64,000 nt of DNA from an uncultured Candidatus Actinomarina sp. (lineage in GTDB: Bacteria; Actinomycetota; Acidimicrobiia; Actinomarinales; Actinomarinaceae). The stretch covers positions 406 to 64,405 of the forward strand of contig CACOBL010000003.1 of the NCBI GenBank assembly GCA_902625455.1. The letters run 5' to 3'. Positions 39,571-63,294 of this stretch are shown here, one piece after another; the stretch's first letter is position 1; the number at the start of each line of letters is the position of its first letter. The notes beneath the pieces were generated by a model. That model did no database searches. It saw nothing but the letters and a program-made list of their open reading frames with translations, and was not told where the DNA came from. Made by a program: the position numbers and the translations under genes.

Positions 39571-39589
39571 AATATATTTGCATAACAAT

Positions 39590-39664
39590 TGGGGGATGGT
39601 GTAATTGGCAACACAATGGGTTTTGGTCCCATCGTTGAGGGTTCGAGTCCTTCTCCCCCAGCCA
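39590..39664 (+). tRNA. tRNA-Gln (UUG)
   Basis: Acceptor UGGGGGA/UCCCCCA + G + CCA; anticodon stem AUGGG/CCCAU with loop UUUUGGU; GTTCGAGTCC T-arm; usual position upstream of glmU. Confidence 0.96.
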
Positions 39665-48414: not shown

Positions 48415-49035
48415 ATGACTGATATCCAACAAGACGGAAGAGCACGTAGACAGCAAGATATTTTTGACCTCAATAGGACAAAACTTATTAATACAGCTGT
48501 TGATGTAATAAATGAAGTTGGCGATATTAGAGAAGTTACTTTAACTCAAATTGCAAAAGAAGCTGGTGTATCACCTGCTACAGCTTACAATCATTTTCCT
48601 GACAGAATGGAAGATGTATTTTCAGCAATTGTTCATTCCAGAATGGATGTAGCTGCAAACATGGGTGCCACACTTGCAGACGAATCTTTAAGCGTAATTG
48701 AGAAATTGAAGAAGATTCCAGTCACATATGCTGAGAACCTTGTAAGCCTTGGATATACAGGAAAAGTTATTGTTGTACAAATGTTTAATTTAATCAATGT
48801 TAATAAATGGCTAGACCAAGATCCAGTACAAGCAATTACAGCTTTATTGAGTAATTCTGAGCAATATCAAGAAAGAGCAGATGAAATTGCTGTAAATGTT
48901 GCCACAGCATTTAGGGGAGCGATGTTTGAATATGCCTTAAATATTGGTGATCATGAACTGTTTAATAGATATTCAGAGGAGTTTTTCCTTAAAACCTCCG
49001 AAAATTTAGTAGAAAACATACTAAAACAGTACTAA
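48415..49035 (+). CDS. TetR/AcrR-family transcriptional regulator
   Basis: TKLINTA...VTLTQIAKEAGVSPATAYNHF HTH; TAATAT box 6 nt upstream. Confidence 0.9.
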   Translation: MTDIQQDGRARRQQDIFDLNRTKLINTAVDVINEVGDIREVTLTQIAKEAGVSPATAYNHFPDRMEDVFSAIVHSRMDVAANMGATLADESLSVIEKLKKIPVTYAENLVSLGYTGKVIVVQMFNLINVNKWLDQDPVQAITALLSNSEQYQERADEIAVNVATAFRGAMFEYALNIGDHELFNRYSEEFFLKTSENLVENILKQY

Positions 49036-49091
49036 TTTTTTAAAAAAAACATTTACTTTTAATCGATTCCAGTTAAACTTAACTTAAGTTG

Positions 49092-49109
49092 ATTAGAATT
49101 AAATCTAAT
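49092..49109. promoter_or_regulatory. Inverted repeat ATTAGA-N6-TCTAAT overlapping a TAGAAT -10 candidate upstream of the giant gene
   Basis: Read directly from the sequence; adjacent 10-bp palindrome AACTTAAGTT at 49081-90. AT-rich, so chance is possible. Confidence 0.3.
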
Positions 49110-49130
49110 TAAAAAAAGTTGTTGTGTGTG

Positions 49131-52100
49131 ATGAATAAATATAATTTTATTTTGTTTTGTCTTAAAGTTAAGACGTTCTTTCACGCCATCAACTATAAAA
49201 AAATCACAACAACAACACTTCATGTTCTTTTATTTGCATTAGTATTTATTTCTTCTTGGGCCACACCTCAAGAAGAAGCATATGCAAATACAACATGGGA
49301 ATGTAACGATGCCGCAGAGAGAGCGTATTTCTATAAACTTGACTGGGAGTTTACCGACAACTTTTTTACAATCTCTCAATATGTTGCCACATCTACATCA
49401 ACAGTTAACTTAGATGAGACTCAAGTAAGTTTATCTGGCTTAACGGTAGGTGGAACAAGCATAACTGGTGTAAAAGGTATTAATGGTTTAGCTATGTCAC
49501 CTGATGGAAAGATGTATGTAACAATCACATCTTCAGCAAACGGTACTGATCTTTTCCAAATAAATACTAATGGTTCACTCACACACTTAAAAAATATGGG
49601 AGCATATGGAACTATTGGTCAGTTAGATTTCTATCAGCTACCAGGTGGTGGTGGTCACTATGGTTTCTCATCTGGTGAGTATGTCTCTAAAGATGGCATA
49701 GATAGAATTTATTTCTCACAGGGTGCATTTGATACTGACTCTGATGGAAATGGATCAGACATTGCCAGACCAAACTCAAACATGATCTATAACGTAGCAA
49801 ACGGTACAACAACTACCTTTCCAGATCCAGGGTTTGTTAGCCCAATTAATGCTGCTGACTACGCCTATGTAGGTGACTGGGACGGATATGAGTTGGTCAC
49901 ATATGATGCAATCAATAACAAAATACACAGATTTGATATCGATAATCCATCAAACTCATCTTCAATTGACCCACAAACAAGTGCGTTTTCTGGAGCTAGT
50001 ACTGTACTTTCAGCATTTTCTTATAAAACACCCCAAGGTGAGATTCGATTTATTGTAGATGACACTAATGGTATGCGTTTTGAGATTGTAAGAAATGGAA
50101 CAAATAACTATAGCGTTACCCAAAAAGGAAGCTCTTTCTTAACAAACAACTCTGATGGTGCTTCTTGTGGACCTAATGCATATGATCCATTTTCTCCAAC
50201 ATTTAAAGCCACTCTTACAGCATGTTCCAATGGTTTCGCTACACCACAACTTAAAATCACAAACAACAAAACAAGCACACAATACTTTGATGTAGATGTC
50301 AGTGTAGATGGAGGTTCGTTTACAAATCTTGTTGACGGGCAGTCGGTGACTCCTGGCAATGATATAACGCTTTCGGCAAATCAGGAATATGACGGTCGAA
50401 CAATACAATTCCGTATGCGCTACAACTCATCTAATCCAAGTTCAGGCACATACTACAACGTAGGTCAACAATTAACTGTCAGTGGATGTGGAAACTATAC
50501 GTTAGCAACTGGTTCTGTTGCGACTGCAAATGGAACATGTTTAGGTGATGGTACATCAAAGCCTACAATTACTCTCACAGCAACTGGTAACGCGACGGTA
50601 TTTTTTGATGTTGAGTACAAAGTTGGAAGTAGCGCCTGGCAGGCATTAAAAGATGGTGAACAAGTTACAGTTGGTTCTCCAGAGACTTACGAAATAACGT
50701 CAGCAGTAGCACACAACTCTGTCGTTACTTTTAGATATATTGTTGGCGCTAGCAATCCATCAAGTACGAACTGGACAGAGTCGTCTGGTGTAACTGTTAA
50801 CTGTCCTGTATACAGTATGACTGCAAGTTTAAATTCACCTTCATGTACAACTAATCAACCATATAAGACCTACACAATGACAGTGCAAAACACAGGTAAC
50901 CAAACGCACTATGTTCACATTAAAGGAAATATAAATCAAACTGGTCAGTCTGGAACCGAAAGTTTTATTGAATATGGCACAAATATTACTGCTAATTCAT
51001 CACGTACATTTAGTTTTCAAATGTGGCATGGTGTTACACCACAAATTAAATGGATGCATTCCACTAATTACTCCAGTTATAACCTTTTCGCAAACGGTGT
51101 TAATGGATCTTTGACGTCTAATTCAAGTTATGGATCCTATTTAAAATCCGGCGATTCTTTTCTAACGCTTGCTGACTCAGAGGTTGACTGTTTCTATGTA
51201 GGTAGTGGTGGTTCCTCTAATAACTCAAGTAGCAACTATAACCAAACTACGAAAACTATATCACAGGTTTGTGATGCTCAGGGAAGTGCTATTGCAAGAT
51301 TTACTATTAAACAAAGAGATGCAGCAAACGATAGCTTTAATGGTTTTATTGATGTTGATTACTCAACAAATGGTTCATCGTGGTCAACTCTGGCTGATGG
51401 GGTAGCATTTAACGACGGAGTAACGTTAACGTATGACTCGCCATCTACATTATCCTCGGGATCAACTGCGTATTTTAGATTTAGAATTGACGATACAAAT
51501 CCTGATAGCACAGCAGCATGGGGTATCTACACCCAGGCAATAAATTGTCAGGCTGATTTTAGTGTTTCACAAACAGTAACCTCATGTTCAGCATCTGGTC
51601 AAACTACAACACTTACAATTACTAATAACGAATCTCAGACTATTTACTTTAGAGCAGTACCTTCAAAAGTTGGTGCAAGCAATAGTGAAACATCCTCATC
51701 TAATTACGAAGATGATGATATCCAGTTATTCTCCATTGCTGCAAACACTACATACTCACACACAACAACAAAGACATATACATATGGTGTCTCCAGTTAT
51801 ATTTACTGGAAAGTTCAGGGCTCTTTTACACAAAATCCAGATTGGACCAATTCAACATTACATAACTTTAATTACACTTCAGAAGTACAAACAAATTGTA
51901 ATCCTTCAACTACTGGAGTTTATGCAATGAGTGCCTGTACTAACACAGGAAAAACTTCAACGCTTACAATACAAAATAACGAATCTGTAACTATTTATGT
52001 TCGTATTCAACCATCAGAAGATCAACTTAGTACAACTAGTTATACCAGTAACTCATATTATGATAATTCACCAGCAGCTGTCGTTTATGCAATTCCAGCA

Positions 52101-55100
52101 AACACAGCCTACACATACGATGCAAACTCAAGACCTGGTTTTCAAAAAACATATACGTCAGATGTTGGTGCGCATTATTATGCACATTGGAGATATCAAG
52201 TTTCATATGTAGAGAATGTTACTTGGTCATCAGGCCCGTTCCCTTATGTTTATGTCAGTCAAGCTAGGTCATCCGCAGATATTACTTCTGGTTATTACGG
52301 AATTAACTGCAATCAGTATGAAACACTACCAACTAGTAGTTACCAGTATCGCTTTCCTGATAATACACAAACAAATTCCTGCATAAACGATCAGATTTGG
52401 GTTTCAAATCAATTTTATAACAATTCATCAGGAAACAACGAAGCTTACTCCAAGCAGTGGTGGATTTTTGAGTACTCCGTTGATGATGGACAAAACTGGT
52501 CAACTGCAAATATTTTCTACAGGAGACACAACTCTTCTACAATCCATTCTCCTCCATCAGCAACTAATAATAATGGTTGGTCTGCAACAACTACTACTGG
52601 AACTTATATTGAAATGACAAGTTACTCTTACAGATATTTCACGATTGGAACAAGGCTTGCTGATGGTTCTGTAGTAAAACTCAGATATAAAAGAGCATTT
52701 TCACAATCAGATTTAGCTAATGCTAGTTACATAGAACTTGGTTCACAGAATATGTCAACAGCAGACAGGACTGCAGAATGTGATGTTGATTTAACAGATT
52801 TTATTGAGGGAAGTGGGAATACTGATGTGACCGTTAATGGTACTGTAGTTTCTAATCTTTTAACACAAGGCACTTGTCAAAATAATGTTAATACTGGTTT
52901 TGCAGACACCATTTTTAGTATTGAAACAGATTCAGGTTCGGCTATTTATTATCTGAAGTTAGAAAAAAAAGTTGATGGAGCTGAGAACTGGACAACGGTT
53001 TACACAAATTATCAATTAAATGCTAATACGCTACTGCAAGAAACTGCACAGCTCAATCATGGACAAACCATTCAATATAAACTACATCTCTCACCAGATA
53101 CTGGAGACTTTTCTAATGCAACTGCATATACCACACCAGTTCTAACAGTTAACTGTCCAAGTACTGGTGCACAGTTAGTTTTTGCATTAGGAGACTGTGT
53201 CTCTGGAGGTAACAAACCTGTAGTAACAATTACTAATACTGGTTACCTAACAGCGCATTATGATGTCGATTACTCTATAGATCAAGGCAGTAACTGGCTT
53301 GATGCATTTGGTACAGATGTCTACAAATCTGTTTTACCAGGTGAATCAACTACATTTACCTTTACGCCAACTATGACTCAGGGTCAGACTGTAGCTTTGA
53401 AATACAGACATGCGCCAACTGCACCAGTTACTTCAGGTGCATTCACAACAGTGAATAATACAATTCTTGTTGACTGTGATGTTAATGCAACTATTGGTGA
53501 TGTGTTACAGGTTTATACAGATGCAACATGTTATGGAGGAAATCAGCGATTTAAGGTCAAAATTGATAATGATGAAACTACTTCAATACAGCTTCAGTAC
53601 AGAGCTTCAGAAGATGGAGGATCTTCTTGGACACACGCAGGTAGCGTTACTGTAAATGCATCTACTGATGATTACGTAACAATATCTGTAGATTTTCAAC
53701 ATGGAGATTCAGTAACATTTGAATTTAGAACAGAGCTTACAGCAACTTCTGCATACTCTACATACACTTCAAAAGGTCCGTATACAGTGTCATGTAATTT
53801 AGATGATTACTTTACAATATCAACATCGTATGATGGTTGTGCTTCACTTGGCCCAGATTTATTGAAACTAAAATTACAAAAAACACAAAGTACTGGTAAT
53901 ACTTATAATTACCTACATTTTGATATTGAGATATCACATGATGGCTCTACATGGAATCCTTTTGGACCATGGATACATCATGGATATGGAAGTAATGAAA
54001 CCAATTACACCAACTATGGCACCAGTTATTACAGTAATCAATATTACAGTTCTGCATACCCAAGCCACTCAGGTTATGTAAATATTGGTACCTATACCAG
54101 TTCCAATGCTAATTTCTCAGCATTTCATTTTGTTGACTCCTCACATGCCTACAAAATTCGATATCGATATTACAACTCAAATTCGACGTCTCATGATCAT
54201 ACGGCCTTAATGAACTTGTCATGGACAACCATAGATGTTGCAGCAAACCTAGGTTGTGAATCTAATGATATTGAGCCTGTTACATTAGTGTCTACACAGC
54301 AACAGTGTCAGGAGAATAGAGGAAAAGTCCAGTTTACATTTACCGACACTACGATTTCTCACAACGATCCTTATGAAGCAGCAACATTAATTTACAGGTA
54401 CTCGACGAACGGTGGAACAACGTATTCGAATCATACAAAAGTTAATCTGAATAACTCCACAACGTTTGAGCTTCCTCAATCTGCTACGTTACCTAATACA
54501 ACAGTGATAACTGTTCAATGGGGTTACATTAGAGATTTCAATAAGATTAATAATTATTTTGACCACATAGGGTCAACAAATAAAAATGGTCTTTATACAA
54601 GAATGCCGACGAGTACTCAGAATTATAATGATGGAACTCTTTCAACAAACTTCAGTACAATTGTCTATGAAAATACCACTAATATCTCTGTGGACTGTGA
54701 TCCAGATTCCACATATTCACAGACTGTAACTGAGTGTGTGTGTAGTGATAGTGGTGCAAACTCTACATTAACTATTACTAATAACGAAAACTACACAACG
54801 TATTACAAGGTTATGTATTCATTGGATGGTGGTCTAACATGGCAGTACTCTAATCCAAATATTGAGTCGGCCTACGACATATCGGTTGCGGCGGGGGCCT
54901 CAGACTCATCACAGACAGTTTTCGTACCAGACGGAAAAACAATTACATGGAGAATAAAAGATACTACTAATGGTGGTGACTTTGTTGGTCAAGACTGGGA
55001 AACTGTCGATGCAAGTGAGACTGTTGATTGTGGTTGTTCCGGTGGTGTTGTAGATCTTACTTTAGGTTCTTGTGGAAATGGTGCTGCTACACCAACAGTA

Positions 55101-58100
55101 ACTTTGGACGTGAATTCAACAGATACAACATATTTTAAGATTGAGTATAAGAGAAGTACTGACAGTGATTGGATAGTGTATAGGGCACAGGAAACTGTGA
55201 CGGGCGGTAATGATGCTCAGTTACAGTTAGATGTCACTGTTCCTCACTCAGCAACTATTCAAGTTAGATATAGAATTAGTAAAAGCACATCAACACTAAA
55301 TACTGCAGAATTAAAATACTCAGATACACTTACTGTAGATTGTCCATTTAACACAGTTTCATTTACACCTAATACTCCTGTATGTACAACAAACAATGTA
55401 CAACAACCAAATATGACTGTTGTTAACACTACATCATCAACTTCAGCGGCGTATGTAAATGTACAATACAAAATCATTAATACAACTACTAGTGAAGATT
55501 TATCTGCTGGAACGTGGGCTAATACAACATTAATGGGAGATCTTTTGCCTGCAAACGGTGCAGCCTATGTTACAGGTGACACTATAAATGTTTCAGAGGG
55601 ACAGAAAATAATTTGGCGATATGAGTGGTCATACACCAATACTTTTGCCGGTAGCTGGACATACGACCAGACTGCATCATTTGTTAACTGTGTAAAAGAC
55701 TTTACTGTTACTCAGACACTTGGTACATGTAATGCAGGTGTAAAAGCATCAACTGTAAGGCTTACAAATAATGAGACATTTGCTACTTTATATTTCAAAG
55801 TTGAGAGATCTTTTGACAATGTCAACTTCACAGTTGTAGAGGGTAATGTTGAGGTTGCCCCAACAGGTTTTCAAGAAGTCATAGTAGATGTACCTCATAC
55901 AAAACGTGTTTACTGGAGAGTTACTGCTACCAATATCAGCAACAACTATACAGCTGCTTATGCAACAGTAGCATCAATAGTTCAGTCAGATCTTGTAGAA
56001 TGTCCAGTTGTGGCAGGTACTGCAGAAGCAAGTTTAGGTAACTGTGTTGGAGGAGCACAGCAATCTACATTCAGTTTTACAAATCCAATATCATCAAATG
56101 CAAATGCTTTCTTTCATATTCAATACACATTAGATGGTGGTTCTAACTGGACAACTATAGTGGAAGAAGTGCAGCCTGGAGCTACAGAGCAAAAAACCAT
56201 CGCTGTACCTAGTGGTCAAACAATTAGATGGAAGTATTATCCACACACACAAGTAGCTACGCCATCAGGAGTTGCCTATGTTGAGTTAACGGAAAGTGCA
56301 GTCTCAGATTGTACATTCGACACTATTGAGACAGTAGCAATAGGTGAGTGTGATACTAATGGTGAGGCACTATCTAGTTATGTAATCCAGAACAATACTG
56401 GTACAAATCTTTACTACAAAATCCAATACAAAATCCAAGGAGAAAGTGTTTATACAACTGTCGACGACGACTTCTTATTAAATGCAAATACGACATCTAC
56501 GGCGTTTACAAAATCTGTACCATCAGGAAAATATATTGAGTGGAGATATTCTGTATCGAATGATCTAAACCTTATAGCTGTAGCTACTCCAAAATCACCT
56601 ATACAAAGTGCAACAGTTAATTGTAGTATTATCGACCCAGGTTTTGAGATCGCACAAGGTTCCTGTAGAGATGGGAATAAAGATGCATACTTCTATGCTA
56701 AGAATGGTGCTGCAGCAACGTCAGATGTTTATTTCCAAGTTGAAGTAAGCGTTAATGGAGAAGCATATACATCAGCAGGAACAATTATTGTTGGACCAAA
56801 TAGCCAAGCAACAATTGAAAAAACAAATCTTTCAAATGGCAACACTATTAAGTGGAGATATAAGACTTCTAAAGATAACGTAACGTACTCCACTGATTAT
56901 TCGGAATCAAGCACAATGACTATTACATGTTTATCTGGTGATGACGTCTCTATAACTATCCCAACCACATGTAACTCTAACGGAACAAAAACTGCAACTG
57001 TTACAACGGTAAATAACAGTTCATCTGATAAATTTTATTTAATTGAATACTCACTTGAGCAAAGTCCATCTAACTGGGTTTCTTTAACAAACAATTTTGG
57101 ATTGGTCGCTTCTAACACCAACACCCAAACTAAATACTTATCTGAGGGTGAGTACTTTACTATTAGGTACAAGATTTCAAATACTAATACCACATCAGCT
57201 TTTACAGGAATTGACTATATTGTTAGCGAGACAAAAGGACCTGTTAACTGTTCTGGCGACATTGAGTGGAGAGTTGCATTAGATGCTTGTCAAAGTGGTA
57301 AAAGAGATTCAGTATTCTATTATTTAAATAAGCCAAGTACTGGTGCTCCTGTATATTTCTTAGTTGAGTATTCAATAGACGGTGGAGCTTGGACAAATCC
57401 TAAAGCAGGACAGACAGCAAATTACTATACATCCCTACATACAAATAGTAATGAGCAATCTATCTCTGTAGAAGTTGGTTCGGGATCAACAATTCAATGG
57501 AGATTCAAAGATTCTCTAAGCACAGATGCGTTTGCTAATAAATCATTTACTTCTGGAACACCTAATGGACCACTGTCAGTGCTATGTGATGGAAGCATTT
57601 CACACAACGTTACTATTGGTTCATGTGTTGACAGAAAAGCATCATCAACATTGACATTGACAAATGATGGATTTGTAGATGTTTATGTCGATGTATGGAT
57701 AAGTTATGACGGTGGAGCTAATTGGAACAACCATGCAACTAGTCAGAAAGTTATAACAACATCACCAAAAGTATTTACTCAGAACAATATTACAAACGGA
57801 TCAGTTGTTAAGTGGAAATACAAATATGCAAGTACTTCTGCTGCAATTTCAAGCGCAAGCGATGTTTTAACTGATGATAAACCAGCAATTGATTGTGATT
57901 CATTAGTAACAACTCAGATTACATATTCACATGCATTTGATTCATGTGCTGATGGTGAGAGAGTTGGAACATTTACAATTAATAACCCATCAACAACAAA
58001 CAATACTGTATATGTAGAGGTGCAGTACAGAACAAAATCATCACAATCAAATAATTTCTGGACACCATATACAACATTAAATGTTGAGAGTATTGCTGCA

Positions 58101-60110
58101 GGTGCTTCAAAAGGATTTAATGCGCCTTCTGTACCTAGTGGAGGTTATGTTGATTGGAGATTTAGAGCGTCACTTGCATCCAATGATTTTGCTGGAGATT
58201 GGACGAATGATACTCATCCAGGATATTTAGCTCAATGTTTCCAATCTTCATCGCACGTTCATACTCTAGAATCTTGTATTGATGGAGAACAATACTCTAA
58301 ATTAACAATTACAAACAATGGTTCAACAACCCAGTATTACCAAGTTCAGATTCAAATTAATAATGGCAACTGGGAAACAAAATTCCCTTCAACTCCTATT
58401 GCAGGTGGACAGAATTTAGAATTTCAATGGCCAATCCAGCAGGGAGAGACTATAAGGTGGCAGTATGTCGCTTCAACGGATACTGATTTTAGCAATGACT
58501 CTCTTGTTCCATCACTTGCAAAGACCAATCAGTGTACACCAGTATTTAGCTTACAGACACAGACTGCTTGTGCTGATGCATCAACTTTAAACAATAATCA
58601 AGTAAATAACACAAAAGTTACTTTGACATTGAACAATACATCATCAGTTGATGGAAGTGTTACTGTACAATACAGATATTTACAAACTGATAACTGGAAG
58701 ACTTTAACTACAACTGCAATCTCTGCAGGAAATTCTACAAATGTTGACTATACATTAGTTGATCCATATGTTGAATTTCAATATGCTCCATTTGGAACAA
58801 CAAACTGGAGTAATAGTGGATTGGTTTATAAGGTTACTAATTGCGATACTCCAGGCAACCAATTAACTGCTACAAACACATTTATTTGTAGCGAAGACCA
58901 ACCATTTGGCCAAGTAAAAATTTCTAACTCAACAGTTACCAATCAAACTGTTACTTACTCATACTCTTTTGATGGAAATAGTTGGATTAATGAAAAGACC
59001 GTACTAATTCCAGCTAATACAACACACCTTAGTGATCTAATAAATGTTACAAAAGGTACACAAATTAGATGGAGATACAAGCCTACTAATTTAACTGATA
59101 ATGATTACAAAACTCTAACTGATACAGCACCAGTTAATTGTGATATCACGACAGATCAGCAGATAATTCATACACTTGGTACATGTGAAAATAATAAAGC
59201 TTTATCAATTATCAAAGTAACTAATCTTTCCAGCACACAGAAATCATATTTACTTGAATTCAAAGTTGATAATGGTGCGTTTGCCAGATATGAGACATTA
59301 ATTATTTCAGCGGGTGACAATACATCAAAGACTCTTGAAATTTCTGAAGGTCAAAATATCCAATGGAGAATAATTGATGCAACAAGTGATGCTTCTACAA
59401 GAGCTGTTGATGGTAACTGGGATACATCGACTGTACTTACACTTAGTTGTACAACTCCTCCTCCTACAATTCCTGAGAATAAATTTATTTTTGAACCATT
59501 AATCTCTACCAGCAGAGTTTGTAGTGAAGATGGTGGTGCAATGTTTGGTATCACTGTAGATAATTCAAGATCAAATGTTGATGCTGATGTTATACAAAGA
59601 GTATGGGTTGATAAATTTACAGTATTTGAAAAACAAGAAACTATCCCAGCAGGAGAGTCAATTCAATTCTCTAGTTTTGAAATCAGCGAAGATAAGTTCT
59701 TTACAGTTGAGTTTGAAGTTACAAATGTGAAGAATGACAAGACACAATCAATGGTTAAAAACAAGACCTCTGACTGCATTGATAATGGAATCAGTCCAAC
59801 CGATGAACAAAACCCAGTCGACGGTATTGAAGTTGAAAATCTTATTGATGGAACTGGTGATGATCAAGAAATGGGAGATAATGGAGATGATATATTCTTC
59901 CTACCAGGTGATGACTTTGTTGAATGGGTTTACGATGAAAATGCATCAGATATATCACCACCTCCATTATGCCCAGGTGACGCAAGTTGTAATAATGGTG
60001 GAGAAGACTTTGCTCCAACAGGTTCAAATGTAGGCAGATTAATAATTCTCTTAGGTTCTTTACTTATGATGGCAGGTGGTTTTATCCTAAGTAGAGGGTA
60101 CAGATTTTAA
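49131..60110 (+). CDS. Giant (~3659 aa) sortase-anchored surface protein: signal peptide, putative beta-propeller head, 28 Cys-bracketed ~100-150 aa modules, acidic spacer, FAPTG sorting signal
   Basis: Signal ending AYA|N; head ends NNSDGASC; recurring C..(T/S)xTxxN..Y/FxVEYSxDGGxxW..VxxG..IxWRY..C; FAPTG + hydrophobic helix + RGYRF tail. Confidence 0.88.
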   Translation: MNKYNFILFCLKVKTFFHAINYKKITTTTLHVLLFALVFISSWATPQEEAYANTTWECNDAAERAYFYKLDWEFTDNFFTISQYVATSTSTVNLDETQVSLSGLTVGGTSITGVKGINGLAMSPDGKMYVTITSSANGTDLFQINTNGSLTHLKNMGAYGTIGQLDFYQLPGGGGHYGFSSGEYVSKDGIDRIYFSQGAFDTDSDGNGSDIARPNSNMIYNVANGTTTTFPDPGFVSPINAADYAYVGDWDGYELVTYDAINNKIHRFDIDNPSNSSSIDPQTSAFSGASTVLSAFSYKTPQGEIRFIVDDTNGMRFEIVRNGTNNYSVTQKGSSFLTNNSDGASCGPNAYDPFSPTFKATLTACSNGFATPQLKITNNKTSTQYFDVDVSVDGGSFTNLVDGQSVTPGNDITLSANQEYDGRTIQFRMRYNSSNPSSGTYYNVGQQLTVSGCGNYTLATGSVATANGTCLGDGTSKPTITLTATGNATVFFDVEYKVGSSAWQALKDGEQVTVGSPETYEITSAVAHNSVVTFRYIVGASNPSSTNWTESSGVTVNCPVYSMTASLNSPSCTTNQPYKTYTMTVQNTGNQTHYVHIKGNINQTGQSGTESFIEYGTNITANSSRTFSFQMWHGVTPQIKWMHSTNYSSYNLFANGVNGSLTSNSSYGSYLKSGDSFLTLADSEVDCFYVGSGGSSNNSSSNYNQTTKTISQVCDAQGSAIARFTIKQRDAANDSFNGFIDVDYSTNGSSWSTLADGVAFNDGVTLTYDSPSTLSSGSTAYFRFRIDDTNPDSTAAWGIYTQAINCQADFSVSQTVTSCSASGQTTTLTITNNESQTIYFRAVPSKVGASNSETSSSNYEDDDIQLFSIAANTTYSHTTTKTYTYGVSSYIYWKVQGSFTQNPDWTNSTLHNFNYTSEVQTNCNPSTTGVYAMSACTNTGKTSTLTIQNNESVTIYVRIQPSEDQLSTTSYTSNSYYDNSPAAVVYAIPANTAYTYDANSRPGFQKTYTSDVGAHYYAHWRYQVSYVENVTWSSGPFPYVYVSQARSSADITSGYYGINCNQYETLPTSSYQYRFPDNTQTNSCINDQIWVSNQFYNNSSGNNEAYSKQWWIFEYSVDDGQNWSTANIFYRRHNSSTIHSPPSATNNNGWSATTTTGTYIEMTSYSYRYFTIGTRLADGSVVKLRYKRAFSQSDLANASYIELGSQNMSTADRTAECDVDLTDFIEGSGNTDVTVNGTVVSNLLTQGTCQNNVNTGFADTIFSIETDSGSAIYYLKLEKKVDGAENWTTVYTNYQLNANTLLQETAQLNHGQTIQYKLHLSPDTGDFSNATAYTTPVLTVNCPSTGAQLVFALGDCVSGGNKPVVTITNTGYLTAHYDVDYSIDQGSNWLDAFGTDVYKSVLPGESTTFTFTPTMTQGQTVALKYRHAPTAPVTSGAFTTVNNTILVDCDVNATIGDVLQVYTDATCYGGNQRFKVKIDNDETTSIQLQYRASEDGGSSWTHAGSVTVNASTDDYVTISVDFQHGDSVTFEFRTELTATSAYSTYTSKGPYTVSCNLDDYFTISTSYDGCASLGPDLLKLKLQKTQSTGNTYNYLHFDIEISHDGSTWNPFGPWIHHGYGSNETNYTNYGTSYYSNQYYSSAYPSHSGYVNIGTYTSSNANFSAFHFVDSSHAYKIRYRYYNSNSTSHDHTALMNLSWTTIDVAANLGCESNDIEPVTLVSTQQQCQENRGKVQFTFTDTTISHNDPYEAATLIYRYSTNGGTTYSNHTKVNLNNSTTFELPQSATLPNTTVITVQWGYIRDFNKINNYFDHIGSTNKNGLYTRMPTSTQNYNDGTLSTNFSTIVYENTTNISVDCDPDSTYSQTVTECVCSDSGANSTLTITNNENYTTYYKVMYSLDGGLTWQYSNPNIESAYDISVAAGASDSSQTVFVPDGKTITWRIKDTTNGGDFVGQDWETVDASETVDCGCSGGVVDLTLGSCGNGAATPTVTLDVNSTDTTYFKIEYKRSTDSDWIVYRAQETVTGGNDAQLQLDVTVPHSATIQVRYRISKSTSTLNTAELKYSDTLTVDCPFNTVSFTPNTPVCTTNNVQQPNMTVVNTTSSTSAAYVNVQYKIINTTTSEDLSAGTWANTTLMGDLLPANGAAYVTGDTINVSEGQKIIWRYEWSYTNTFAGSWTYDQTASFVNCVKDFTVTQTLGTCNAGVKASTVRLTNNETFATLYFKVERSFDNVNFTVVEGNVEVAPTGFQEVIVDVPHTKRVYWRVTATNISNNYTAAYATVASIVQSDLVECPVVAGTAEASLGNCVGGAQQSTFSFTNPISSNANAFFHIQYTLDGGSNWTTIVEEVQPGATEQKTIAVPSGQTIRWKYYPHTQVATPSGVAYVELTESAVSDCTFDTIETVAIGECDTNGEALSSYVIQNNTGTNLYYKIQYKIQGESVYTTVDDDFLLNANTTSTAFTKSVPSGKYIEWRYSVSNDLNLIAVATPKSPIQSATVNCSIIDPGFEIAQGSCRDGNKDAYFYAKNGAAATSDVYFQVEVSVNGEAYTSAGTIIVGPNSQATIEKTNLSNGNTIKWRYKTSKDNVTYSTDYSESSTMTITCLSGDDVSITIPTTCNSNGTKTATVTTVNNSSSDKFYLIEYSLEQSPSNWVSLTNNFGLVASNTNTQTKYLSEGEYFTIRYKISNTNTTSAFTGIDYIVSETKGPVNCSGDIEWRVALDACQSGKRDSVFYYLNKPSTGAPVYFLVEYSIDGGAWTNPKAGQTANYYTSLHTNSNEQSISVEVGSGSTIQWRFKDSLSTDAFANKSFTSGTPNGPLSVLCDGSISHNVTIGSCVDRKASSTLTLTNDGFVDVYVDVWISYDGGANWNNHATSQKVITTSPKVFTQNNITNGSVVKWKYKYASTSAAISSASDVLTDDKPAIDCDSLVTTQITYSHAFDSCADGERVGTFTINNPSTTNNTVYVEVQYRTKSSQSNNFWTPYTTLNVESIAAGASKGFNAPSVPSGGYVDWRFRASLASNDFAGDWTNDTHPGYLAQCFQSSSHVHTLESCIDGEQYSKLTITNNGSTTQYYQVQIQINNGNWETKFPSTPIAGGQNLEFQWPIQQGETIRWQYVASTDTDFSNDSLVPSLAKTNQCTPVFSLQTQTACADASTLNNNQVNNTKVTLTLNNTSSVDGSVTVQYRYLQTDNWKTLTTTAISAGNSTNVDYTLVDPYVEFQYAPFGTTNWSNSGLVYKVTNCDTPGNQLTATNTFICSEDQPFGQVKISNSTVTNQTVTYSYSFDGNSWINEKTVLIPANTTHLSDLINVTKGTQIRWRYKPTNLTDNDYKTLTDTAPVNCDITTDQQIIHTLGTCENNKALSIIKVTNLSSTQKSYLLEFKVDNGAFARYETLIISAGDNTSKTLEISEGQNIQWRIIDATSDASTRAVDGNWDTSTVLTLSCTTPPPTIPENKFIFEPLISTSRVCSEDGGAMFGITVDNSRSNVDADVIQRVWVDKFTVFEKQETIPAGESIQFSSFEISEDKFFTVEFEVTNVKNDKTQSMVKNKTSDCIDNGISPTDEQNPVDGIEVENLIDGTGDDQEMGDNGDDIFFLPGDDFVEWVYDENASDISPPPLCPGDASCNNGGEDFAPTGSNVGRLIILLGSLLMMAGGFILSRGYRF

Positions 60111-61741
60111 TGCAGTATTTTTTTGTATATCTTTTAATAATTATCATAAATATCGTCGCTGTATTAGCTGTTTTGCGTGTTAGAAGAAATAGACAAAATG
60201 ATCCAAATGTTATTACAGACGTAAAAGATAGTGATATTGTTTATGAATCAGATTCACCGCAACAAGAAAAAAGACCAGGCTTTTCCTCCAGATTCTCAAG
60301 AAATAGTAATTTGTCTTTAGGTTTTAATGAAATAGGAGATGACGAAAAAGAAGTAATCTATGGTGGAGATTTGCTTGAGCTTGCTGTTAAGAAAAAAGTT
60401 ATTAAAAAAAAAGGGAATTGGTACTTGTATGAAAACGAAAAAATTGCCTACGGAAAAGACAAAGCTAAATTCTATTTATTAGAAAATCCTGTAATTGCCT
60501 CTGAGATTAGCAATAGGGTTTATGGAACAATCAAAGTACAAAATAATGATATGTCCGTCGAAGAATCTTCAAACGAGCTAGCCGACCAATCTAACAACAT
60601 ACAGAATTTACAATCTGTAAATTTATTATCTCAAGAGTACGAAGTTGAGCTTGCTGAGGTATATGTAAAATCTAATACATTAAAAAAAGTGATTGAAAAC
60701 ACAATTGGCACTGAAGTATTAATAAGTATTGATATTAGTGAAAAGTTCAATCCCGTTTTAAATTCACCTGAGGTTTATGCAGCTGAAGTAATAGGTCTGC
60801 TTAATGAAATAGATTATATGATTGCAGCTGTAGAGAATGTTAGTAAAAACTCAAAATATCTAGGTATTGAAGTTGATGAAAAATTATTAAGAGAGAGACT
60901 CAATTTATTAATGTCTAGTCGTTTCTCGATTGTATTTACAAAAAAACCTGTTCTTAAGCATTTAAGTTTACCGATGTTGAATTTTAGAAATAGAGGAAGT
61001 AAACCATCAAGGGCAAGAACTGTAAATATATCCAATAACAGTGGTAAATCAGCAATGATTCCACTTGGCATTGGCTTACTAATAGTCGGTCTTTTTATAG
61101 TTATCTATTCAGTTACTCAAACATTCTTTTCCATGTCAGTCATTGAGGATGAGCAAAATCTCCTTAGCTTAAAATATGAACAAAATCAGGACACTTCATT
61201 GGAAGAATTAAGATTCATTAATTCTAATTCTATTGAAACAAATGTTTCTCTTGATGAGACAGGGGAGTTTCAAGAATCTGTTTTAAGCCTTGTTAGTAAA
61301 ACAATGACAAATGAAAATGCTAATGAGGAATTCTTACCGGATGTTGTAGGTAGATTAATAATATTTCCTTCAAAAGTTGACCATTATGTCGTCTATGGAT
61401 CTAGTTTAGAGAAATTAGAATTTGGACCGGGGTATTACATTTCAACAGCACTTCCTGGAACCGGCGGAAATTTTGCTATTGCAGGTCATAGAACAACATA
61501 TGGTGCTCCATTTAAAAATTTAGACAGATTAGAAACAGGAGATAATATTTACTTTCAAACTAATACTAATCAATACACATACACAGTAAGTGAAGTAAAA
61601 ATTGTAGACCCAAGTGAGACATACCTACTTTCATCATTCGGTGATGACAGAATTACATTAACAACATGTCACCCAAAATTTTCAGCTAGGCAAAGGTTAG
61701 TAGTCATTGGGATGTTGACAAAAGTTGAGGTGTTTGGATGA
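60110..61741 (+). CDS. Class E sortase with two TM helices and a cytoplasmic RecA C-terminal-like domain
   Basis: GNFAIAGHRTTYGAPF (H460), ITLTTCHPKFSARQRL (C520, R529); TM1 aa ~3-22, TM2 aa ~316-335; aa 84-137 resemble the RecA CTD. Confidence 0.9.
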   Translation: MQYFFVYLLIIIINIVAVLAVLRVRRNRQNDPNVITDVKDSDIVYESDSPQQEKRPGFSSRFSRNSNLSLGFNEIGDDEKEVIYGGDLLELAVKKKVIKKKGNWYLYENEKIAYGKDKAKFYLLENPVIASEISNRVYGTIKVQNNDMSVEESSNELADQSNNIQNLQSVNLLSQEYEVELAEVYVKSNTLKKVIENTIGTEVLISIDISEKFNPVLNSPEVYAAEVIGLLNEIDYMIAAVENVSKNSKYLGIEVDEKLLRERLNLLMSSRFSIVFTKKPVLKHLSLPMLNFRNRGSKPSRARTVNISNNSGKSAMIPLGIGLLIVGLFIVIYSVTQTFFSMSVIEDEQNLLSLKYEQNQDTSLEELRFINSNSIETNVSLDETGEFQESVLSLVSKTMTNENANEEFLPDVVGRLIIFPSKVDHYVVYGSSLEKLEFGPGYYISTALPGTGGNFAIAGHRTTYGAPFKNLDRLETGDNIYFQTNTNQYTYTVSEVKIVDPSETYLLSSFGDDRITLTTCHPKFSARQRLVVIGMLTKVEVFG

Positions 61742-63294
61742 AACTAAGAAAATATTTTTCGGTTTTTCTTATATTTTTATTTTTTATCAATGCTGGTGGA
61801 ATTGAAGATGCTGAGATAAAAATTACAGCCAATAGAGCAGATCAAGAAAATTTAGTTGTCTCGTGGTCAATAAATGGCGTAGAGAATGTAGACGATGTTA
61901 TTTTGGAAGTACTTTTTGAAAACCCATCTGCAGGACAAGTGGAGAATCCATTGATTGTTGACGACATAACAATGGATGAATTAACGAGTTCAAGAATTAT
62001 TCCATGGGACGGAAAATCTAAGTTATTGATTAAATTAAAAATATCTACTATGAATTTTGTTCAATATACAGGCGATGGCTGTAATCATACATTCTGTTTA
62101 AGAGAAAATATTGAGGAATTTGAGTCACAAGTATTTGAGATTGATGAAGTTCCTACACTACCTACAGTTCCAACAACCATTGTAGAAGTTACTCCACCAG
62201 AGCCAATGGATAACTCTACCGTTGGTAATATTGAATTCACAAATGCCTTAATAACCACTATTCCTTTATTTAGTGATATAGATTTCTCTAATCAAGCAAA
62301 AAATGCCTTCGCATTTGGAATAACTTCAATGATTATCTTTTTATTCTATGCTGTGCTCTTAGCTCAGGAATGGTTTAACAGAATTATTTCTCATTACAGA
62401 GTTAAGTGGACAAAAAAAGAGACTGTCTTACAAGAGAAAACTAGACTTGAAACATTTATGGAGATTTCGTTAATGGCAATGATTACATCACTTATATATG
62501 CTTTTGTTGAAGAAGGCTTTACGTTTTCTGTTGAACCACAGAATTTAGCTATTTTCTTGGGTGTGCTGTTTGGTTTGATTATCGTTACATTTTCATACGA
62601 GGGTATCGAATCTTTAATTGAATATTTTATTTATGATCAAAAGACAAGGTTTAGTTGGAATCCTCAAGCAATGTTCTTTGCAATTTTATCTACAGTTCTA
62701 TTTATAGTGATAGATCTTCCTTTTGGATTTATCTTGGGTTTCATAGCCTCACTTCATATAGTTTCAAATCGTGAACAAGCTGACTTATCGCCTAAATTTT
62801 ATTCCATGATTTCATTAGCAATAGTTGGATACTTATTCTTTTATGCAACTTCTTTTGATTCTGTTCAATCATCAGGTGTATTAATGGCAATTTGTAAATT
62901 GACTTATCTAATGTGCCTTGAGGGTGTGATATTTAAAGCTGTCCCATGGGGCGGTAATGAATTATTTGACGCAATAGGAGACTCAAAGGGCTTGAATCAA
63001 GCAATGCCTGTAGTTAGTTTTTTGATTAGTGTTTGGTTGTTTATAAGAATATTGGTACTACCACCAGATAGTGAATTTAATCAAATGCAACAGACACTTC
63101 TTCAGAGTGGTGCTTTAGCTTATAGATTTGCAATGGTCTTACTTTTCTATATTGCAATTATTTTAATTTTAGGAAACTTCATGAAAAAATATGCTGAGTT
63201 AAACCGACCTGTACATTTTAATGGCGACGAGATGGTTTCTGACAGTGAAATAGGTGAATTGATTGAGGATGAATTAGAGCAAACAATTCGATAA
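61738..63294 (+). CDS. Polytopic membrane protein with N-terminal secreted beta domain and Pro/Thr linker (possibly FGLLP-motif family)
   Basis: Signal/TM, ~110-aa beta-rich domain, PTLPTVPTT linker, then about 9-10 hydrophobic helices with LAQEWFN and PFGFILG. Confidence 0.6.
   Translation: MKLRKYFSVFLIFLFFINAGGIEDAEIKITANRADQENLVVSWSINGVENVDDVILEVLFENPSAGQVENPLIVDDITMDELTSSRIIPWDGKSKLLIKLKISTMNFVQYTGDGCNHTFCLRENIEEFESQVFEIDEVPTLPTVPTTIVEVTPPEPMDNSTVGNIEFTNALITTIPLFSDIDFSNQAKNAFAFGITSMIIFLFYAVLLAQEWFNRIISHYRVKWTKKETVLQEKTRLETFMEISLMAMITSLIYAFVEEGFTFSVEPQNLAIFLGVLFGLIIVTFSYEGIESLIEYFIYDQKTRFSWNPQAMFFAILSTVLFIVIDLPFGFILGFIASLHIVSNREQADLSPKFYSMISLAIVGYLFFYATSFDSVQSSGVLMAICKLTYLMCLEGVIFKAVPWGGNELFDAIGDSKGLNQAMPVVSFLISVWLFIRILVLPPDSEFNQMQQTLLQSGALAYRFAMVLLFYIAIILILGNFMKKYAELNRPVHFNGDEMVSDSEIGELIEDELEQTIR

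What the first reader, a model, noticed from the sequence alone, without database searches (positions are those of the whole stretch)
50170..59777. 28 tandem modules each bracketed by a cysteine pair: a disulfide-stapled beta-sandwich stalk
Seen: by hand I count 28 modules of about 100-150 aa. Each has one Cys near its start (LGxC, xTxC) and one at its end (VNC, VDC); module 13 has two pairs (CVC...CGC). They share T.T.N, Y/F.V(E/Q)YS.DGG..W and V..G..I.WRY. There are no long DNA-level repeats, so the array is old and diverged. Established: actinobacterial pilins and adhesins use disulfides in Ig-like domains. Inference: the first and last strands are clamped by a disulfide, giving a rod of order 100 nm if each module is ~4 nm, which would be long relative to an ultrasmall cell. 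The repeat family may be unannotated.
Basis: partly seen in the sequence, partly recalled or inferred. Interest (0 to 1): 0.78.

Follow-up and report, generated by a model that had tools for sequence, protein, structure and literature searches.

The report
Disulfide-stapled giant surface fibre of Actinomarina
One 11-kb gene of the tiny marine bacterium Candidatus Actinomarina encodes a wall-anchored fibre about 100 nm long: a propeller-shaped head on 28 bead-like domains, each probably pinned shut by one disulfide bond, and the gene takes about 1% of the genome and is strongly transcribed in the sea.

Summary
ORF 49119-60110 (+) encodes a 3663-aa protein. Residues 351-3553 form 28 tandem modules, each bracketed by a cysteine pair; module 13 has two nested pairs. 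A leave-one-out profile recognises 22 modules; six are divergent.

No Pfam, NCBIfam or PDB sequence match reaches threshold. AlphaFold2 and Foldseek show tandem FnIII-like beta-sandwiches, some with an Asp-box-like motif.

The protein has a signal peptide, a beta-propeller head, the 28 modules, an acidic spacer, and FAPTG plus a membrane helix and basic tail. A sortase gene follows with a 1-nt overlap. In deeper relatives, fibre and sortase are one polypeptide.

The locus is syntenic across Candidatus Actinomarina. All module cysteines are invariant down to 37% identity, and module number is fixed at 28 or 29.

Cysteine parity, the nested extra pair, the predicted strand A between end-Cys(n-1) and start-Cys(n), and residue couplings all favour an intramodule disulfide. 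It would link the A-B turn to the end of the last strand, not the first strand to the last. No Cys-Cys distance could be measured.

Metatranscriptomes show the gene far above its neighbours, while same-sample DNA is flat.

Verdict: a new variant of cross-linked Gram-positive fibrillar adhesins. What the head binds is unknown.

The parts
48415..49035 (+). TetR-family regulator directly upstream of the giant gene
   Evidence: Pfam TetR_N match, E = 3e-7. It sits in the same position in L001, L002, L004, L005 and L006.
49119..60110 (+). Giant fibre gene, 3663 codons. The likely true start is ATG 49131. The mature protein is about 390 kDa with pI 4.5.
   Evidence: ORF listing and translation. There are 25 full-length orthologues at 37-91% identity. 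Metatranscriptome contigs begin at 49088-49196.
49119..49286 (+). N-terminal leader or signal peptide. It has a basic n-region, a hydrophobic core LHVLLFALVFISSW and the sequence AYA before N57.
   Evidence: Read directly from the sequence. The leader is conserved in orthologues. No signal-peptide predictor was run.
49287..50168 (+). Head domain, aa 57-350, bracketed by invariant C62 and C350. It is predicted to be a beta-propeller.
   Evidence: AF2 gives pLDDT 65.8 and pTM 0.71. Foldseek finds only beta-propellers (LGI1 EPTP, fucose lectins, PknD sensor) at E about 1e-6 and TM 0.3-0.47. There is no Pfam or PDB sequence hit. It is 97% identical to L001 and L003, with dN/dS 0.03-0.07.
50169..59777 (+). 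Array of 28 Cys-bracketed FnIII-like modules, aa 351-3553. Start-Cys/end-Cys pairs: 369/457, 474/562, 576/691, 718/810, 823/927, 940/1064, 1088/1221, 1253/1346, 1360/1453, 1471/1559, 1574/1713, 1730/1860, 1875/1971, 1985/2075, 2089/2191, 2204/2295, 2309/2398, 2411/2502, 2516/2604, 2618/2711, 2724/2823, 2836/2926, 2943/3040, 3053/3139, 3151/3242, 3257/3341, 3356/3444, 3468/3553.
   Evidence: Cysteine pattern and module alignment, leave-one-out profile and coordinate check. The Cys columns are conserved in 24-26 of 26 homologues, except for two alignment-shifted columns.
54699..55037 (+). Module 13, with a second Cys pair nested around the standard one: C1873 and C1973 lie outside C1875 and C1971.
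   Evidence: All four Cys are invariant in 26 of 26 homologues. In alignment A3 the family-wide columns are the inner pair.
59778..60008 (+). Acidic C-terminal spacer containing the conserved motif DDIFFLPGDDFVEWVYDE. In this clade it also has a small C-x5-C pair (C3618 and C3624).
   Evidence: Read from the sequence. The motif is also present in distant relatives P0027, P0030 and P0036.
60009..60107 (+). Cell-wall sorting signal: FAPTG, a hydrophobic helix (GRLIILLGSLLMMAGGFIL) and the basic tail SRGYRF.
   Evidence: Read from the sequence. The second clade has LPxTG at this position, and one JGI record names it an LPXTG-motif cell wall-anchored protein. It is the only such signal in the window.
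60110..61741 (+). Dedicated sortase of 543 aa: TM1, a cytoplasmic region of about 300 aa with a RecA_C-like domain, TM2, and an extracellular sortase domain with TLTTC. Its start overlaps the giant gene's stop (TAATG).
   Evidence: Pfam Sortase E = 2e-30 and RecA_C E = 1e-16. The best NCBIfam class is E, at 126 bits against a cut-off of 160. The gene is adjacent in all 7 orthologous loci and fused to the fibre in L020.
61738..63294 (+). Conserved 518-aa membrane protein of the cassette. Its function is unknown.
   Evidence: It always follows the sortase, or is inverted together with it in L005. There is only a weak match to the FGLLP-motif membrane protein family, 45 bits against a cut-off of 150.

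Best explanation
What it is. The gene encodes a sortase-anchored surface fibre (a fibrillar adhesin-like protein) of Candidatus Actinomarina.

Assembly. After Sec export, the C-terminal FAPTG / membrane helix / basic tail holds the protein in the membrane. The co-transcribed class-E-like sortase then cleaves the motif and links the protein to the wall (inferred from the motif and neighbouring genes).

Architecture. Outward from the wall come an acidic spacer, then 28 FnIII-like beta-sandwich modules in series, roughly 100-110 nm if each is 3.5-4 nm. At the tip is a conserved beta-propeller head that binds an unknown ligand.

The disulfide. Each module has one disulfide joining the turn after strand A to the C-terminal end of the last strand. 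Both ends lie at the same pole of the sandwich, next to the E-F loop. The propeller is closed in the same way by C62-C350.

How the disulfide would work. Strand A runs from pole to pole and is followed at once by the disulfide. The load-bearing covalent path through a module is therefore only strand A plus the S-S bond. The roughly 90 residues inside the loop are shielded from force. A loop nicked by a protease would also not sever the fibre. The stalk would thus be a practically inextensible tether of fixed length.

Shown: the architecture, fold class, cysteine conservation, sortase linkage, taxon and transcription.

Inferred: the disulfides themselves, wall anchoring, rod length, the mechanical role and the binding function of the head.
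For: Architecture and repeats.

Fold: AF2 of modules 13-15 gives pLDDT 85.5, with seven strands per module. The top Foldseek hits are FnIII tandems: CNTN6 5e55, titin 8bnq and RbmA 4kkp.

Evidence for intramodule pairing:
- Parity. Every conserved Cys of the mature protein is paired under the scheme head 2 + 2 per module + 2 extra in module 13. This holds for the 28-module clade, the 29-module clade, and relatives with 13 and 11 modules; the 6-module relative P0036 has one cysteine this scheme does not place. Junction pairing would always leave invariant C62 and the last Cys unpaired.
- Module 13. Its extra Cys sit at -2 and +2 outside the standard pair, as in an antiparallel two-rung ladder.
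- Strand A. AF2 puts a 5-7-residue extended strand between end-Cys(n-1) and start-Cys(n): E10-16 between C6 and C19/21, and E123-127 between C119 and C131.
- Direct-coupling analysis of 679 modules. After the C-F strand ladder, the strongest couplings link E-F-loop position 72 to the residue after the end-Cys (rank 3 of 5253). In the window's own 28 modules this is a His...Cys-Pro pattern with Fisher P = 0.0017. Position 72 is also coupled to positions +2 and +3 after the start-Cys (ranks 16 and 9). Previous end-Cys versus start-Cys ranks 1101.

Sortase link: the sorting signal, the adjacent sortase, the conserved cassette and the fibre-sortase fusion in L020.

Head as the functional tip: 97% identity and dN/dS 0.03-0.07, against 55-90% identity in the stalk.

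Expression: RNA contigs reach depth 26-285 on the 5' part of the gene, against 0-6 on hom, thrC and tetR. DNA from the same sample is flat.

Background from the literature: disulfides are common in stalk domains of Actinomycetota adhesins (PMC12617251).
Against: - The pairing therefore rests on indirect arguments.
- The cysteines are invariant, so they cannot covary. The apparent 15-105 coupling is an artefact of how the modules were cut.
None is evident in the window.
- The head model has only moderate confidence (pLDDT 66). It matches propellers in general, not any adhesive family.
- Inter-module geometry is uncertain (pTM 0.45), so the rod length is an estimate.
- Contig depth is a poor measure of expression.
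- Six modules are too divergent for the profile.
Confidence: 0.68

Rival explanations
1. The cysteines pair across module junctions, end-Cys(n) with start-Cys(n+1). This would make 12-32-residue disulfide loops that stiffen the linkers instead of stapling each module.
For: The short spacing between the two cysteines (mostly 13-15 aa) is very regular. It would be a plausible small loop.
Against: - It leaves invariant C62 and C3553 unpaired in every lineage.
- It cannot place module 13's four Cys without one intramodule bond.
- AF2 predicts an extended strand between the two cysteines.
- There is no coupling between positions 2 and 15 (rank 1101). Position 1 couples to the B-C loop, while positions 17 and 18 couple to the E-F loop at the opposite pole.
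Confidence: 0.05
2. The cysteines do not form intramolecular disulfides. Instead they are free, bind metal, or form intermolecular disulfides that knit neighbouring fibres into a covalent surface lattice.
For: There is no direct chemical evidence for any pairing. High transcript levels would fit a dense coat in which neighbouring molecules could cross-link.
Against: - The count is strictly even and there is exactly one pair per domain in all lineages.
- No conserved His, Asp or further Cys is available to complete a metal site; only the two Cys are invariant.
- The coupling data place the residues flanking both cysteines of a module next to the E-F loop.
- Oxic seawater disfavours free thiols (established chemistry).
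Confidence: 0.1
3. The structure is the same but the purpose differs. The fibre is not an adhesin. It would be a passive brush coat about 100 nm deep that enlarges the cell's effective size, keeps phages or grazers at a distance, or acts as a decoy, with the head serving only as a cap.
For: - Transcript levels are high.
- Module number is fixed at 28 or 29 while the stalk sequence diverges fast and shows a recombination mosaic.
- The lifestyle is free-living and planktonic (PMC7771536).
- No known adhesive domain is detected.
Against: The head is the most conserved part of the protein (97% identity, dN/dS 0.03-0.07; 56% identity between clades against 41% overall). This points to a specific, conserved interaction rather than a cap. 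dN/dS is below 1 everywhere, so there is no sign of diversifying selection.
Confidence: 0.25

Closest known systems
Fibrillar adhesins of Gram-positive bacteria (as defined by Monzon et al. 2021, PMC8286594, and PMC9210967)
   Same: Both have a signal peptide, a distal non-repeat head, a long stalk of tandem beta-sandwich domains, and a C-terminal LPXTG-type sorting signal with a nearby sortase.
   Different: - The stalk module and the head match no Pfam stalk or adhesive family.
- The organism is a free-living, genome-streamlined marine plankter, not a host-associated or biofilm bacterium.
- Module number is fixed (28 or 29) and the modules are one-to-one orthologous across the genus, rather than varying through recombination between near-identical repeats.
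Internally cross-linked stalk domains: isopeptide CnaA/CnaB pilin domains (such as Spy0128) and ester-bond domains (such as Cpe0147). The surveyed isopeptide domains often also carry disulfides in Actinomycetota (PMC12617251).
   Same: Each domain has one covalent intradomain cross-link, placed so that it bridges the start and end regions. The expected effect is the same: resistance to force and proteases.
   Different: The chemistry here is a disulfide only. There is no conserved Lys/Asn/Asp/Glu or Thr/Gln set. The fold is FnIII-like rather than CnaA/CnaB. The link runs from the A-B turn to the end of the last strand, so strand A lies outside the loop.
FnIII domains and Asp-box-bearing beta-sandwiches (Pfam fn3 PF00041, BNR PF02012, CHB_HEX_C PF03174, Reelin_subrepeat-B PF21471)
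   Same: It is a seven-strand sandwich, and the best structural matches are FnIII tandems. An S-x-D-x-G-x-x-W hairpin follows strand C in some modules. Distant profile hits are Asp-box repeats of the SprB and fn3 types.
   Different: No module reaches any family's threshold; the best E-values are 0.009-0.2. The canonical Asp-box occurs in only 5-6 of 28 modules, and a relaxed form in 12. The conserved Cys bracket is not a feature of those families.
Actinobacterial pilins with MdbA-dependent disulfides (SpaA, FimA). This comparison is from my own knowledge and was not tested here.
   Same: Both are actinobacterial, sortase-handled surface proteins whose Ig-like domains need disulfides.
   Different: Pilins are short subunits polymerised by class C sortases. 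Here a single 390-kDa chain replaces the polymer, and there is no pilin motif.
Giant repetitive adhesins of marine Gram-negative bacteria, such as Marinomonas primoryensis MpIBP. This comparison is from my own knowledge and was not tested here.
   Same: Both are very long rods of about 100-aa beta-sandwich repeats that project a ligand-binding region far from a planktonic cell.
   Different: Those are RTX/T1SS-exported and Ca2+-rigidified, with near-identical repeats and an outer-membrane anchor. Here export is by Sec and sortase, the repeats are diverged, and stabilisation is by disulfide.

Membership tests
LPXTG-type sortase substrate | N-terminal secretion signal | tested here: met
   A basic n-region, hydrophobic core and AYA|N site were read from the sequence and are conserved in orthologues. 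No predictor was run.
LPXTG-type sortase substrate | An LPXTG-like pentapeptide followed by a hydrophobic helix and a basic tail at the extreme C-terminus | tested here: met
   The window has FAPTG + GRLIILLGSLLMMAGGFIL + SRGYRF. Its clade has F/Y-A/G-x-TG, the second clade LPxTG, and deeper relatives LAETG, IADTG and MADTG.
LPXTG-type sortase substrate | A sortase encoded in the genome | tested here: met
   The sortase domain lies immediately downstream with a 1-nt overlap. It is linked in 7 of 7 orthologous loci and fused to the fibre in L020.
LPXTG-type sortase substrate | Cleavage at Thr-Gly and covalent attachment to peptidoglycan | not testable with these tools
   This needs biochemistry.
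Fibrillar adhesin (Monzon et al. 2021) | A stalk of tandem repeated domains | tested here: met
   There are 28 modules with an FnIII-like fold.
Fibrillar adhesin (Monzon et al. 2021) | A recognisable adhesive or binding domain | tested here: inconclusive
   The head is a predicted beta-propeller resembling lectin and sensor propellers only in general. It matches no adhesive family. Its strong conservation suggests function.
Pfam fn3 (PF00041) | A sequence match above the gathering threshold | tested here: not met
   There is no fn3 hit for the whole protein or for any module. Only the fold is similar.
BNR/Asp-box repeat (PF02012) | The S-x-D-x-G-x-T-W motif above threshold | tested here: not met
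   The best E-value is 0.057, in 3 of 28 modules. The strict motif occurs in 5-6 modules. Orthologues carry only 'faint' BNR hits.
Intramolecular isopeptide or ester-bond stalk domains (CnaA/CnaB and Cpe0147 type) | Conserved Lys + Asn/Asp + catalytic Glu/Asp, or Thr + Gln with a triad | tested here: not met
   Only the two Cys columns are invariant, and no other column reaches 90%. There are no Pfam hits to these families.
Class E sortase (NF033747), for the partner enzyme | A score above the NCBIfam cut-off, and an LAxTG substrate | tested here: inconclusive
   It is the best-scoring class but lies below the cut-off (126 against 160 bits). The substrate motif has Ala or Gly at position 2 in this clade, and LAETG in L020.

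The most novel reading that the evidence does not exclude
The fibre would be a length-calibrated (28 or 29 modules), disulfide-locked tether or antenna about 100 nm long. It would be a core, abundantly made structure of the smallest known free-living cells. Its conserved propeller head would dock Actinomarina physically to a specific partner, such as a picophytoplankton surface, a gel particle or a polymer. In that case this 'free-living' streamlined plankter would depend on contact, and the fixed stalk length would be set by the geometry of that contact. In deeper relatives, the same fibre is made as one polypeptide with its own sortase, which would be a self-anchoring substrate-enzyme fusion.
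Probability: 0.15. Interest if true: 0.85.

Novelty: new variant of a known kind. Interest (0 to 1): 0.62.

Why it matters
Actinomarina is among the most abundant and smallest free-living marine bacteria. Its genome is about 1.1 Mb, its cells are 0.29 um across, and it is a textbook case of genome streamlining.

Such a cell keeps, across the whole genus and at a fixed locus, an 11-kb gene that is about 1% of the genome. It encodes a fibre a third of the cell's diameter in length and is transcribed well above neighbouring housekeeping genes. That implies a major, so far undescribed, surface function. The three Actinomarina genome papers I searched do not mention it.

Structurally, it would add a disulfide-only, FnIII-like, Asp-box-bearing module to the known ways in which Gram-positive bacteria cross-link adhesin stalks. 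The cross-link is positioned so that it short-circuits the force path. This is directly testable by mass spectrometry and single-molecule pulling.

The fibre-sortase fusions in relatives are a natural case of a sortase joined to its own substrate.

Tried and rejected
- Sequence family searches. Pfam and NCBIfam scans of the whole protein and of each module gave nothing above threshold. Searches of PDB sequences with the module profile and with the head gave nothing significant either.
- Profile search of 1.84 billion proteins. It found 673 hits. Those matching the full module with both cysteines are fragments or relatives of this same fibre. The rest match only the Asp-box core of SprB, fn3 and similar repeats.
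- First alignment for structure prediction. The alignment of overlapping three-module windows (A2) came out staggered and was discarded. Non-overlapping windows (A3) aligned in register.
- Co-loss test. I looked for modules that had lost one or both cysteines, to see which are lost together. It was uninformative: 99 of 105 complete modules have both, and the exceptions are alignment edge effects.
- Start-Cys/end-Cys coupling. The direct coupling (rank 4) was rejected as evidence, because modules were cut at cysteines and the signal comes from gapped rows.
- Cys-Cys distances. They could not be computed, because model coordinates are not delivered to the Python box.
- Oxidase search. The window itself shows only cytoplasmic thioredoxin- or glutaredoxin-like CxxC proteins.
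- Literature. No mention of the protein was found in PMC7771536, PMC3747508 or bioRxiv 10.64898/2026.04.03.716425. A metaproteomics search gave nothing specific.
Full report
**1. The observation**

The window has about 33% G+C. One ORF, 49119-60110 (+), encodes 3663 aa. The likely start is ATG 49131, and orthologues begin near there.

The protein has 64 cysteines, and their spacing alternates strictly. After C62 and C350, long gaps of 84-139 aa alternate with short gaps of 12-32 aa, mostly 13-15. This defines 28 modules between C369 and C3553. Module 13 has C1873-x-C1875 ... C1971-x-C1973.

In the alignment of the 28 modules (A1), only the two Cys columns are invariant and mean identity is 17%.

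A profile built from 27 modules detects the left-out one at E <= 1.4e-5 for 22 modules. Modules 3, 7, 11, 12, 25 and 28 are divergent or carry large inserts, and are recognised only by their bracket and position. None of 280 shuffled modules scores. There are no meaningful DNA-level repeats.

**2. The protein as a whole**

From N- to C-terminus the protein has these parts.
- **Leader peptide.** It ends at AYA|N57.
- **Head, aa 57-350.** It is bracketed by C62 and C350.
- **The 28 modules.**
- **Acidic spacer.** It contains the motif DDIFFLPGDDFVEWVYDE.
- **Sorting signal.** FAPTG, a hydrophobic helix and SRGYRF.

Orthologues of the other clade have LPDTG, LPETG, LPKTG and similar motifs at the same place, and one is named an LPXTG-motif cell wall-anchored protein by JGI. 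It is the only sorting signal in the window.

The next gene, 60110-61741, overlaps the stop codon (TAATG). It encodes TM1, a cytoplasmic region of about 300 aa with a RecA_C-like domain, TM2, and a sortase domain with TLTTC. Class E is the best-scoring sortase class but lies below the cut-off (126 against 160 bits). A TetR gene lies upstream and a 518-aa membrane protein downstream.

**3. Relatives and taxon**

A word-index search found 25 full-length homologues of 3628-3761 aa at 37-91% identity. Seven were fetched with their surroundings as L001-L007. All keep the fibre-sortase pair; TetR upstream and the ~520-aa protein downstream are seen wherever the contig extends that far. Where more flank was held (L001, L002; partly L004), the wider order is GlmU, Prs, WhiB, GDPD, YqeY, Hom, ThrC, then the cassette. 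In L005 the sortase pair is inverted.

A scan of one genome per species (185,579 species) with the head alignment found 12 loci. Ten are titled Candidatus Actinomarina, OCS155 or Actinomarinales. Two short contigs labelled Gammaproteobacteria MAG are probably mis-binned.

Near-identical DNA is present in many marine metagenomes. The window is therefore from Candidatus Actinomarina. These are the smallest described free-living cells, 0.29 um in diameter (PMC3747508), with a genome of about 1.1 Mb (PMC7771536). The gene is about 1% of that genome.

Neither of those papers, nor the 2026 preprint on complete Actinomarina genomes, mentions this protein, a sortase or a giant gene.

**4. Conservation pattern**

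In a full-length alignment of 26 proteins, the module cysteines, C62, C350 and all four Cys of module 13 are conserved in 24-26 of 26. Only two columns fall short, because the alignment is shifted there.

The window's clade has 28 modules. The other clade has 29, with one extra near the C-terminus. The modules are thus one-to-one orthologous and the number is essentially fixed at about 40% identity. This is unlike adhesins whose near-identical repeats expand and contract.

Deeper relatives at the same syntenic locus have the same head, the same special last module, the same acidic motif and an LAxTG-type signal, but fewer modules.
- P0036 has 6 modules.
- P0030 has 11 modules.
- P0027 (locus L020) has 13 modules.

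In P0027 and P0036 the reading frame continues past the sorting signal's helix and basic tail. It runs into the cytoplasmic linker, TM2 and the sortase domain, giving a substrate-sortase fusion. This is strong evidence that the fibre and the adjacent sortase work together.

Against L001 and L003 the head is 97% identical (dN/dS 0.03-0.07). Modules 16-27 are 53-84% identical. dN/dS stays at or below about 0.4 throughout. dS jumps from 0.14-0.33 (leader to module 5, against L001) to above 1 in later blocks, which suggests a recombination mosaic.

**5. Fold**

- **Sequence searches.** No Pfam or NCBIfam family is matched by the protein or by any single module. The best sub-threshold hints are Asp-box-bearing families: F5_F8_type_C, Reelin_subrepeat-B, BNR and CHB_HEX_C. 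The module profile finds nothing significant among PDB sequences.
- **Wider profile search.** Against 1.84 billion representative proteins it finds 673 proteins. Those covering the whole module, cysteines included, are fragments or relatives of this fibre. The others match only the core, and are SprB, fn3 and other Asp-box repeats.
- **Module structure.** AlphaFold2 of aa 1855-2210 (modules 13-15) used a 43-row in-register alignment of orthologous and paralogous triplets (A3). It gave pLDDT 85.5 and seven strands per module. The best Foldseek matches are FnIII tandems: CNTN6 FN1-3, titin A84-A86 and RbmA, at E of 1e-7 to 1e-5.
- **Head structure.** With 8 sequences the head is predicted as a beta-propeller (pLDDT 65.8, pTM 0.71). 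It matches propellers in general: LGI1 EPTP, fucose lectins, the PknD sensor and BtuK1, with TM 0.3-0.47.

**6. Which cysteines pair?**

Four indirect lines agree on intramodule pairing.

- **(i) Parity.** Under intradomain pairing, every conserved Cys of the mature protein has a partner in the 28-, 29-, 13- and 11-module architectures: head 2, 2 per module, 2 extra in module 13, and a small C-x5-C pair in this clade. P0027's one extra Cys is the sortase's catalytic one; in the 6-module P0036 one further cysteine is left unassigned. Junction pairing always strands the invariant first and last Cys.
- **(ii) Module 13.** Alignment A3 shows that the family-wide columns are the inner pair, C1875 and C1971. 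The extra Cys lie two residues outside on each side. This is the register of two rungs between antiparallel segments.
- **(iii) Strand A.** AF2 places an extended strand between end-Cys(n-1) and start-Cys(n). The start-Cys lies in the turn before strand B. The '13-aa linker' is therefore strand A of the next module. Its two ends lie at opposite poles of an FnIII-like sandwich, and in that fold the A-B turn and the C-terminus share a pole (established topology).
- **(iv) Residue couplings.** I ran mean-field direct-coupling analysis on 679 distinct modules from all homologues (effective number 296).
  - It recovers the C-F ladder: 37-81, 39-79 and 41-77.
  - It couples E-F-loop position 72 with the residue after the end-Cys (rank 3 of 5253).
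  - It couples position 72 with positions +2 and +3 after the start-Cys (ranks 16 and 9).
  - Position 1 couples to the B-C loop (rank 22).
  - Previous end-Cys against start-Cys ranks 1101.
  - In the window's own 28 modules, His at position 72 goes with Pro after the end-Cys in 4 of 7 cases, against 0 of 21 without His (Fisher P = 0.0017).

The apparent start-Cys/end-Cys coupling is an artefact and is not used.

I put intramodule pairing at about 0.75-0.8.

**7. How it would work**

These steps are inferred. Strand A spans the module from pole to pole and is followed directly by the disulfide to the module's C-terminus. The covalent load path per module is therefore strand A plus S-S. About 90 residues per module are mechanically shielded, and proteolytic nicks in loops would not cut the fibre.

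The result would be an inextensible tether of about 28 x 3.5-4 nm, roughly 100-110 nm, a third of the cell's diameter. It carries a strongly conserved propeller head.

Disulfides are frequent in stalk domains of Actinomycetota adhesins (PMC12617251), so the chemistry fits the phylum. Exported proteins in the window also tend to have even Cys counts (anecdotal).

**8. Expression**

Four metatranscriptomes hold contigs of the gene. Depth is 26-285 over 49.4-50.7 kb and declines towards the 3' end. It is 0-6 over hom, thrC and tetR. DNA runs of the same sample as two of the RNA runs are flat across all 19 kb: 18-31, 29-62 and mostly 83-167 (one bin 41). The RNA profile is therefore not DNA carry-over. 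Contig depth is only a rough measure.

**9. Verdict**

This is a sortase-anchored fibrillar surface protein. Its stalk module is an unannotated, Cys-bracketed, Asp-box-type FnIII-like domain.

- **What it works like:** cross-linked Gram-positive adhesin stalks.
- **Membership:** the criteria for a sortase substrate are met by sequence. Fibrillar-adhesin status is met except for a recognised adhesive domain. The fn3, BNR and isopeptide families are not met by sequence.
- **Function of the head:** unknown. Adhesion or ligand capture is favoured over a passive coat because the head is the most constrained part.

Two earlier follow-up notes of this scan, on other Actinomarina genomes, reached similar readings. 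They are not independent evidence.

Noticed in passing
L020:8001-14762 (P0027); also P0036: At the same syntenic locus in deeper relatives, the fibre has a head plus 13 or 6 Cys-bracketed modules and an LAETG or MADTG signal with helix and basic tail. It continues in frame into the cytoplasmic linker, a second helix and the sortase domain. This is a natural substrate-sortase fusion.
   Followed up: partly
window 60356-60523 (within sortase gene 60110-61741): The sortase carries a RecA C-terminal-like domain (Pfam RecA_C, E = 1e-16) in its predicted cytoplasmic region of about 300 aa between two membrane helices. The domain is conserved in six of the seven orthologous loci (L005's sortase instead carries a Gmad2 hit).
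   Followed up: partly
window 49119-60110 compared with L001 and L003: Synonymous divergence is mosaic. Against L001, dS is 0.14-0.33 from the leader to module 5, but above 1 in modules 6-7, 11-12 and most of 15-28. This suggests recombination between Actinomarina lineages inside the gene.
   Followed up: partly
window 50169-59777: N-x-S/T sequons are enriched: 102 observed against 71.5 +/- 7.0 in shuffles (z = 4.3). In 18 of 28 modules one sits in the turn after strand B (for example ITNNES and LTNNET). They could be glycosylation sites or just a structural motif.
   Followed up: no
L002, L004-L007 (second clade of orthologues): The second clade has 29 modules, with one extra near the C-terminus, a head 19 aa shorter, and canonical LPxTG. 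The window's clade has F/Y-A/G-x-TG plus an extra C-x5-C pair before the motif.
   Followed up: partly
window 59892-60196: In three DNA runs of one sample, a minor contig form (about 15% of depth) replaces 303 nt spanning the sorting signal and the sortase start with 16 other nucleotides. The supporting flank is only 21 nt, so it may be an assembly artefact or come from another strain.
   Followed up: no
window 63386-63999: The Thr-rich gene starting at 63301 also shows high metatranscriptome depth (14-208) in three of four RNA runs, unlike the sortase and the 518-aa gene between it and the fibre gene.
   Followed up: no
L010 and L015: Two short contigs (14 kb and 9.8 kb) carrying this Actinomarina gene are filed under 'Gammaproteobacteria bacterium' MAGs. 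This is probably mis-binning.
   Followed up: no
window 39589-39664: The mechanically listed TTG start of the GlmU-like ORF (39589) overlaps tRNA-Gln (39590-39664). The real start must lie downstream, since the Pfam domains begin at residue 34.
   Followed up: no
window 59778-60008: The acidic motif before the sorting signal, (D/E)(D/E)I(F/Y)F..GD(F/Y).V.(Y/W).Y.E, is conserved even in the 6-13-module relatives. The last module, m28, is also a distinct and conserved type. Both may be a wall-embedded or sortase-recognition segment.
   Followed up: no
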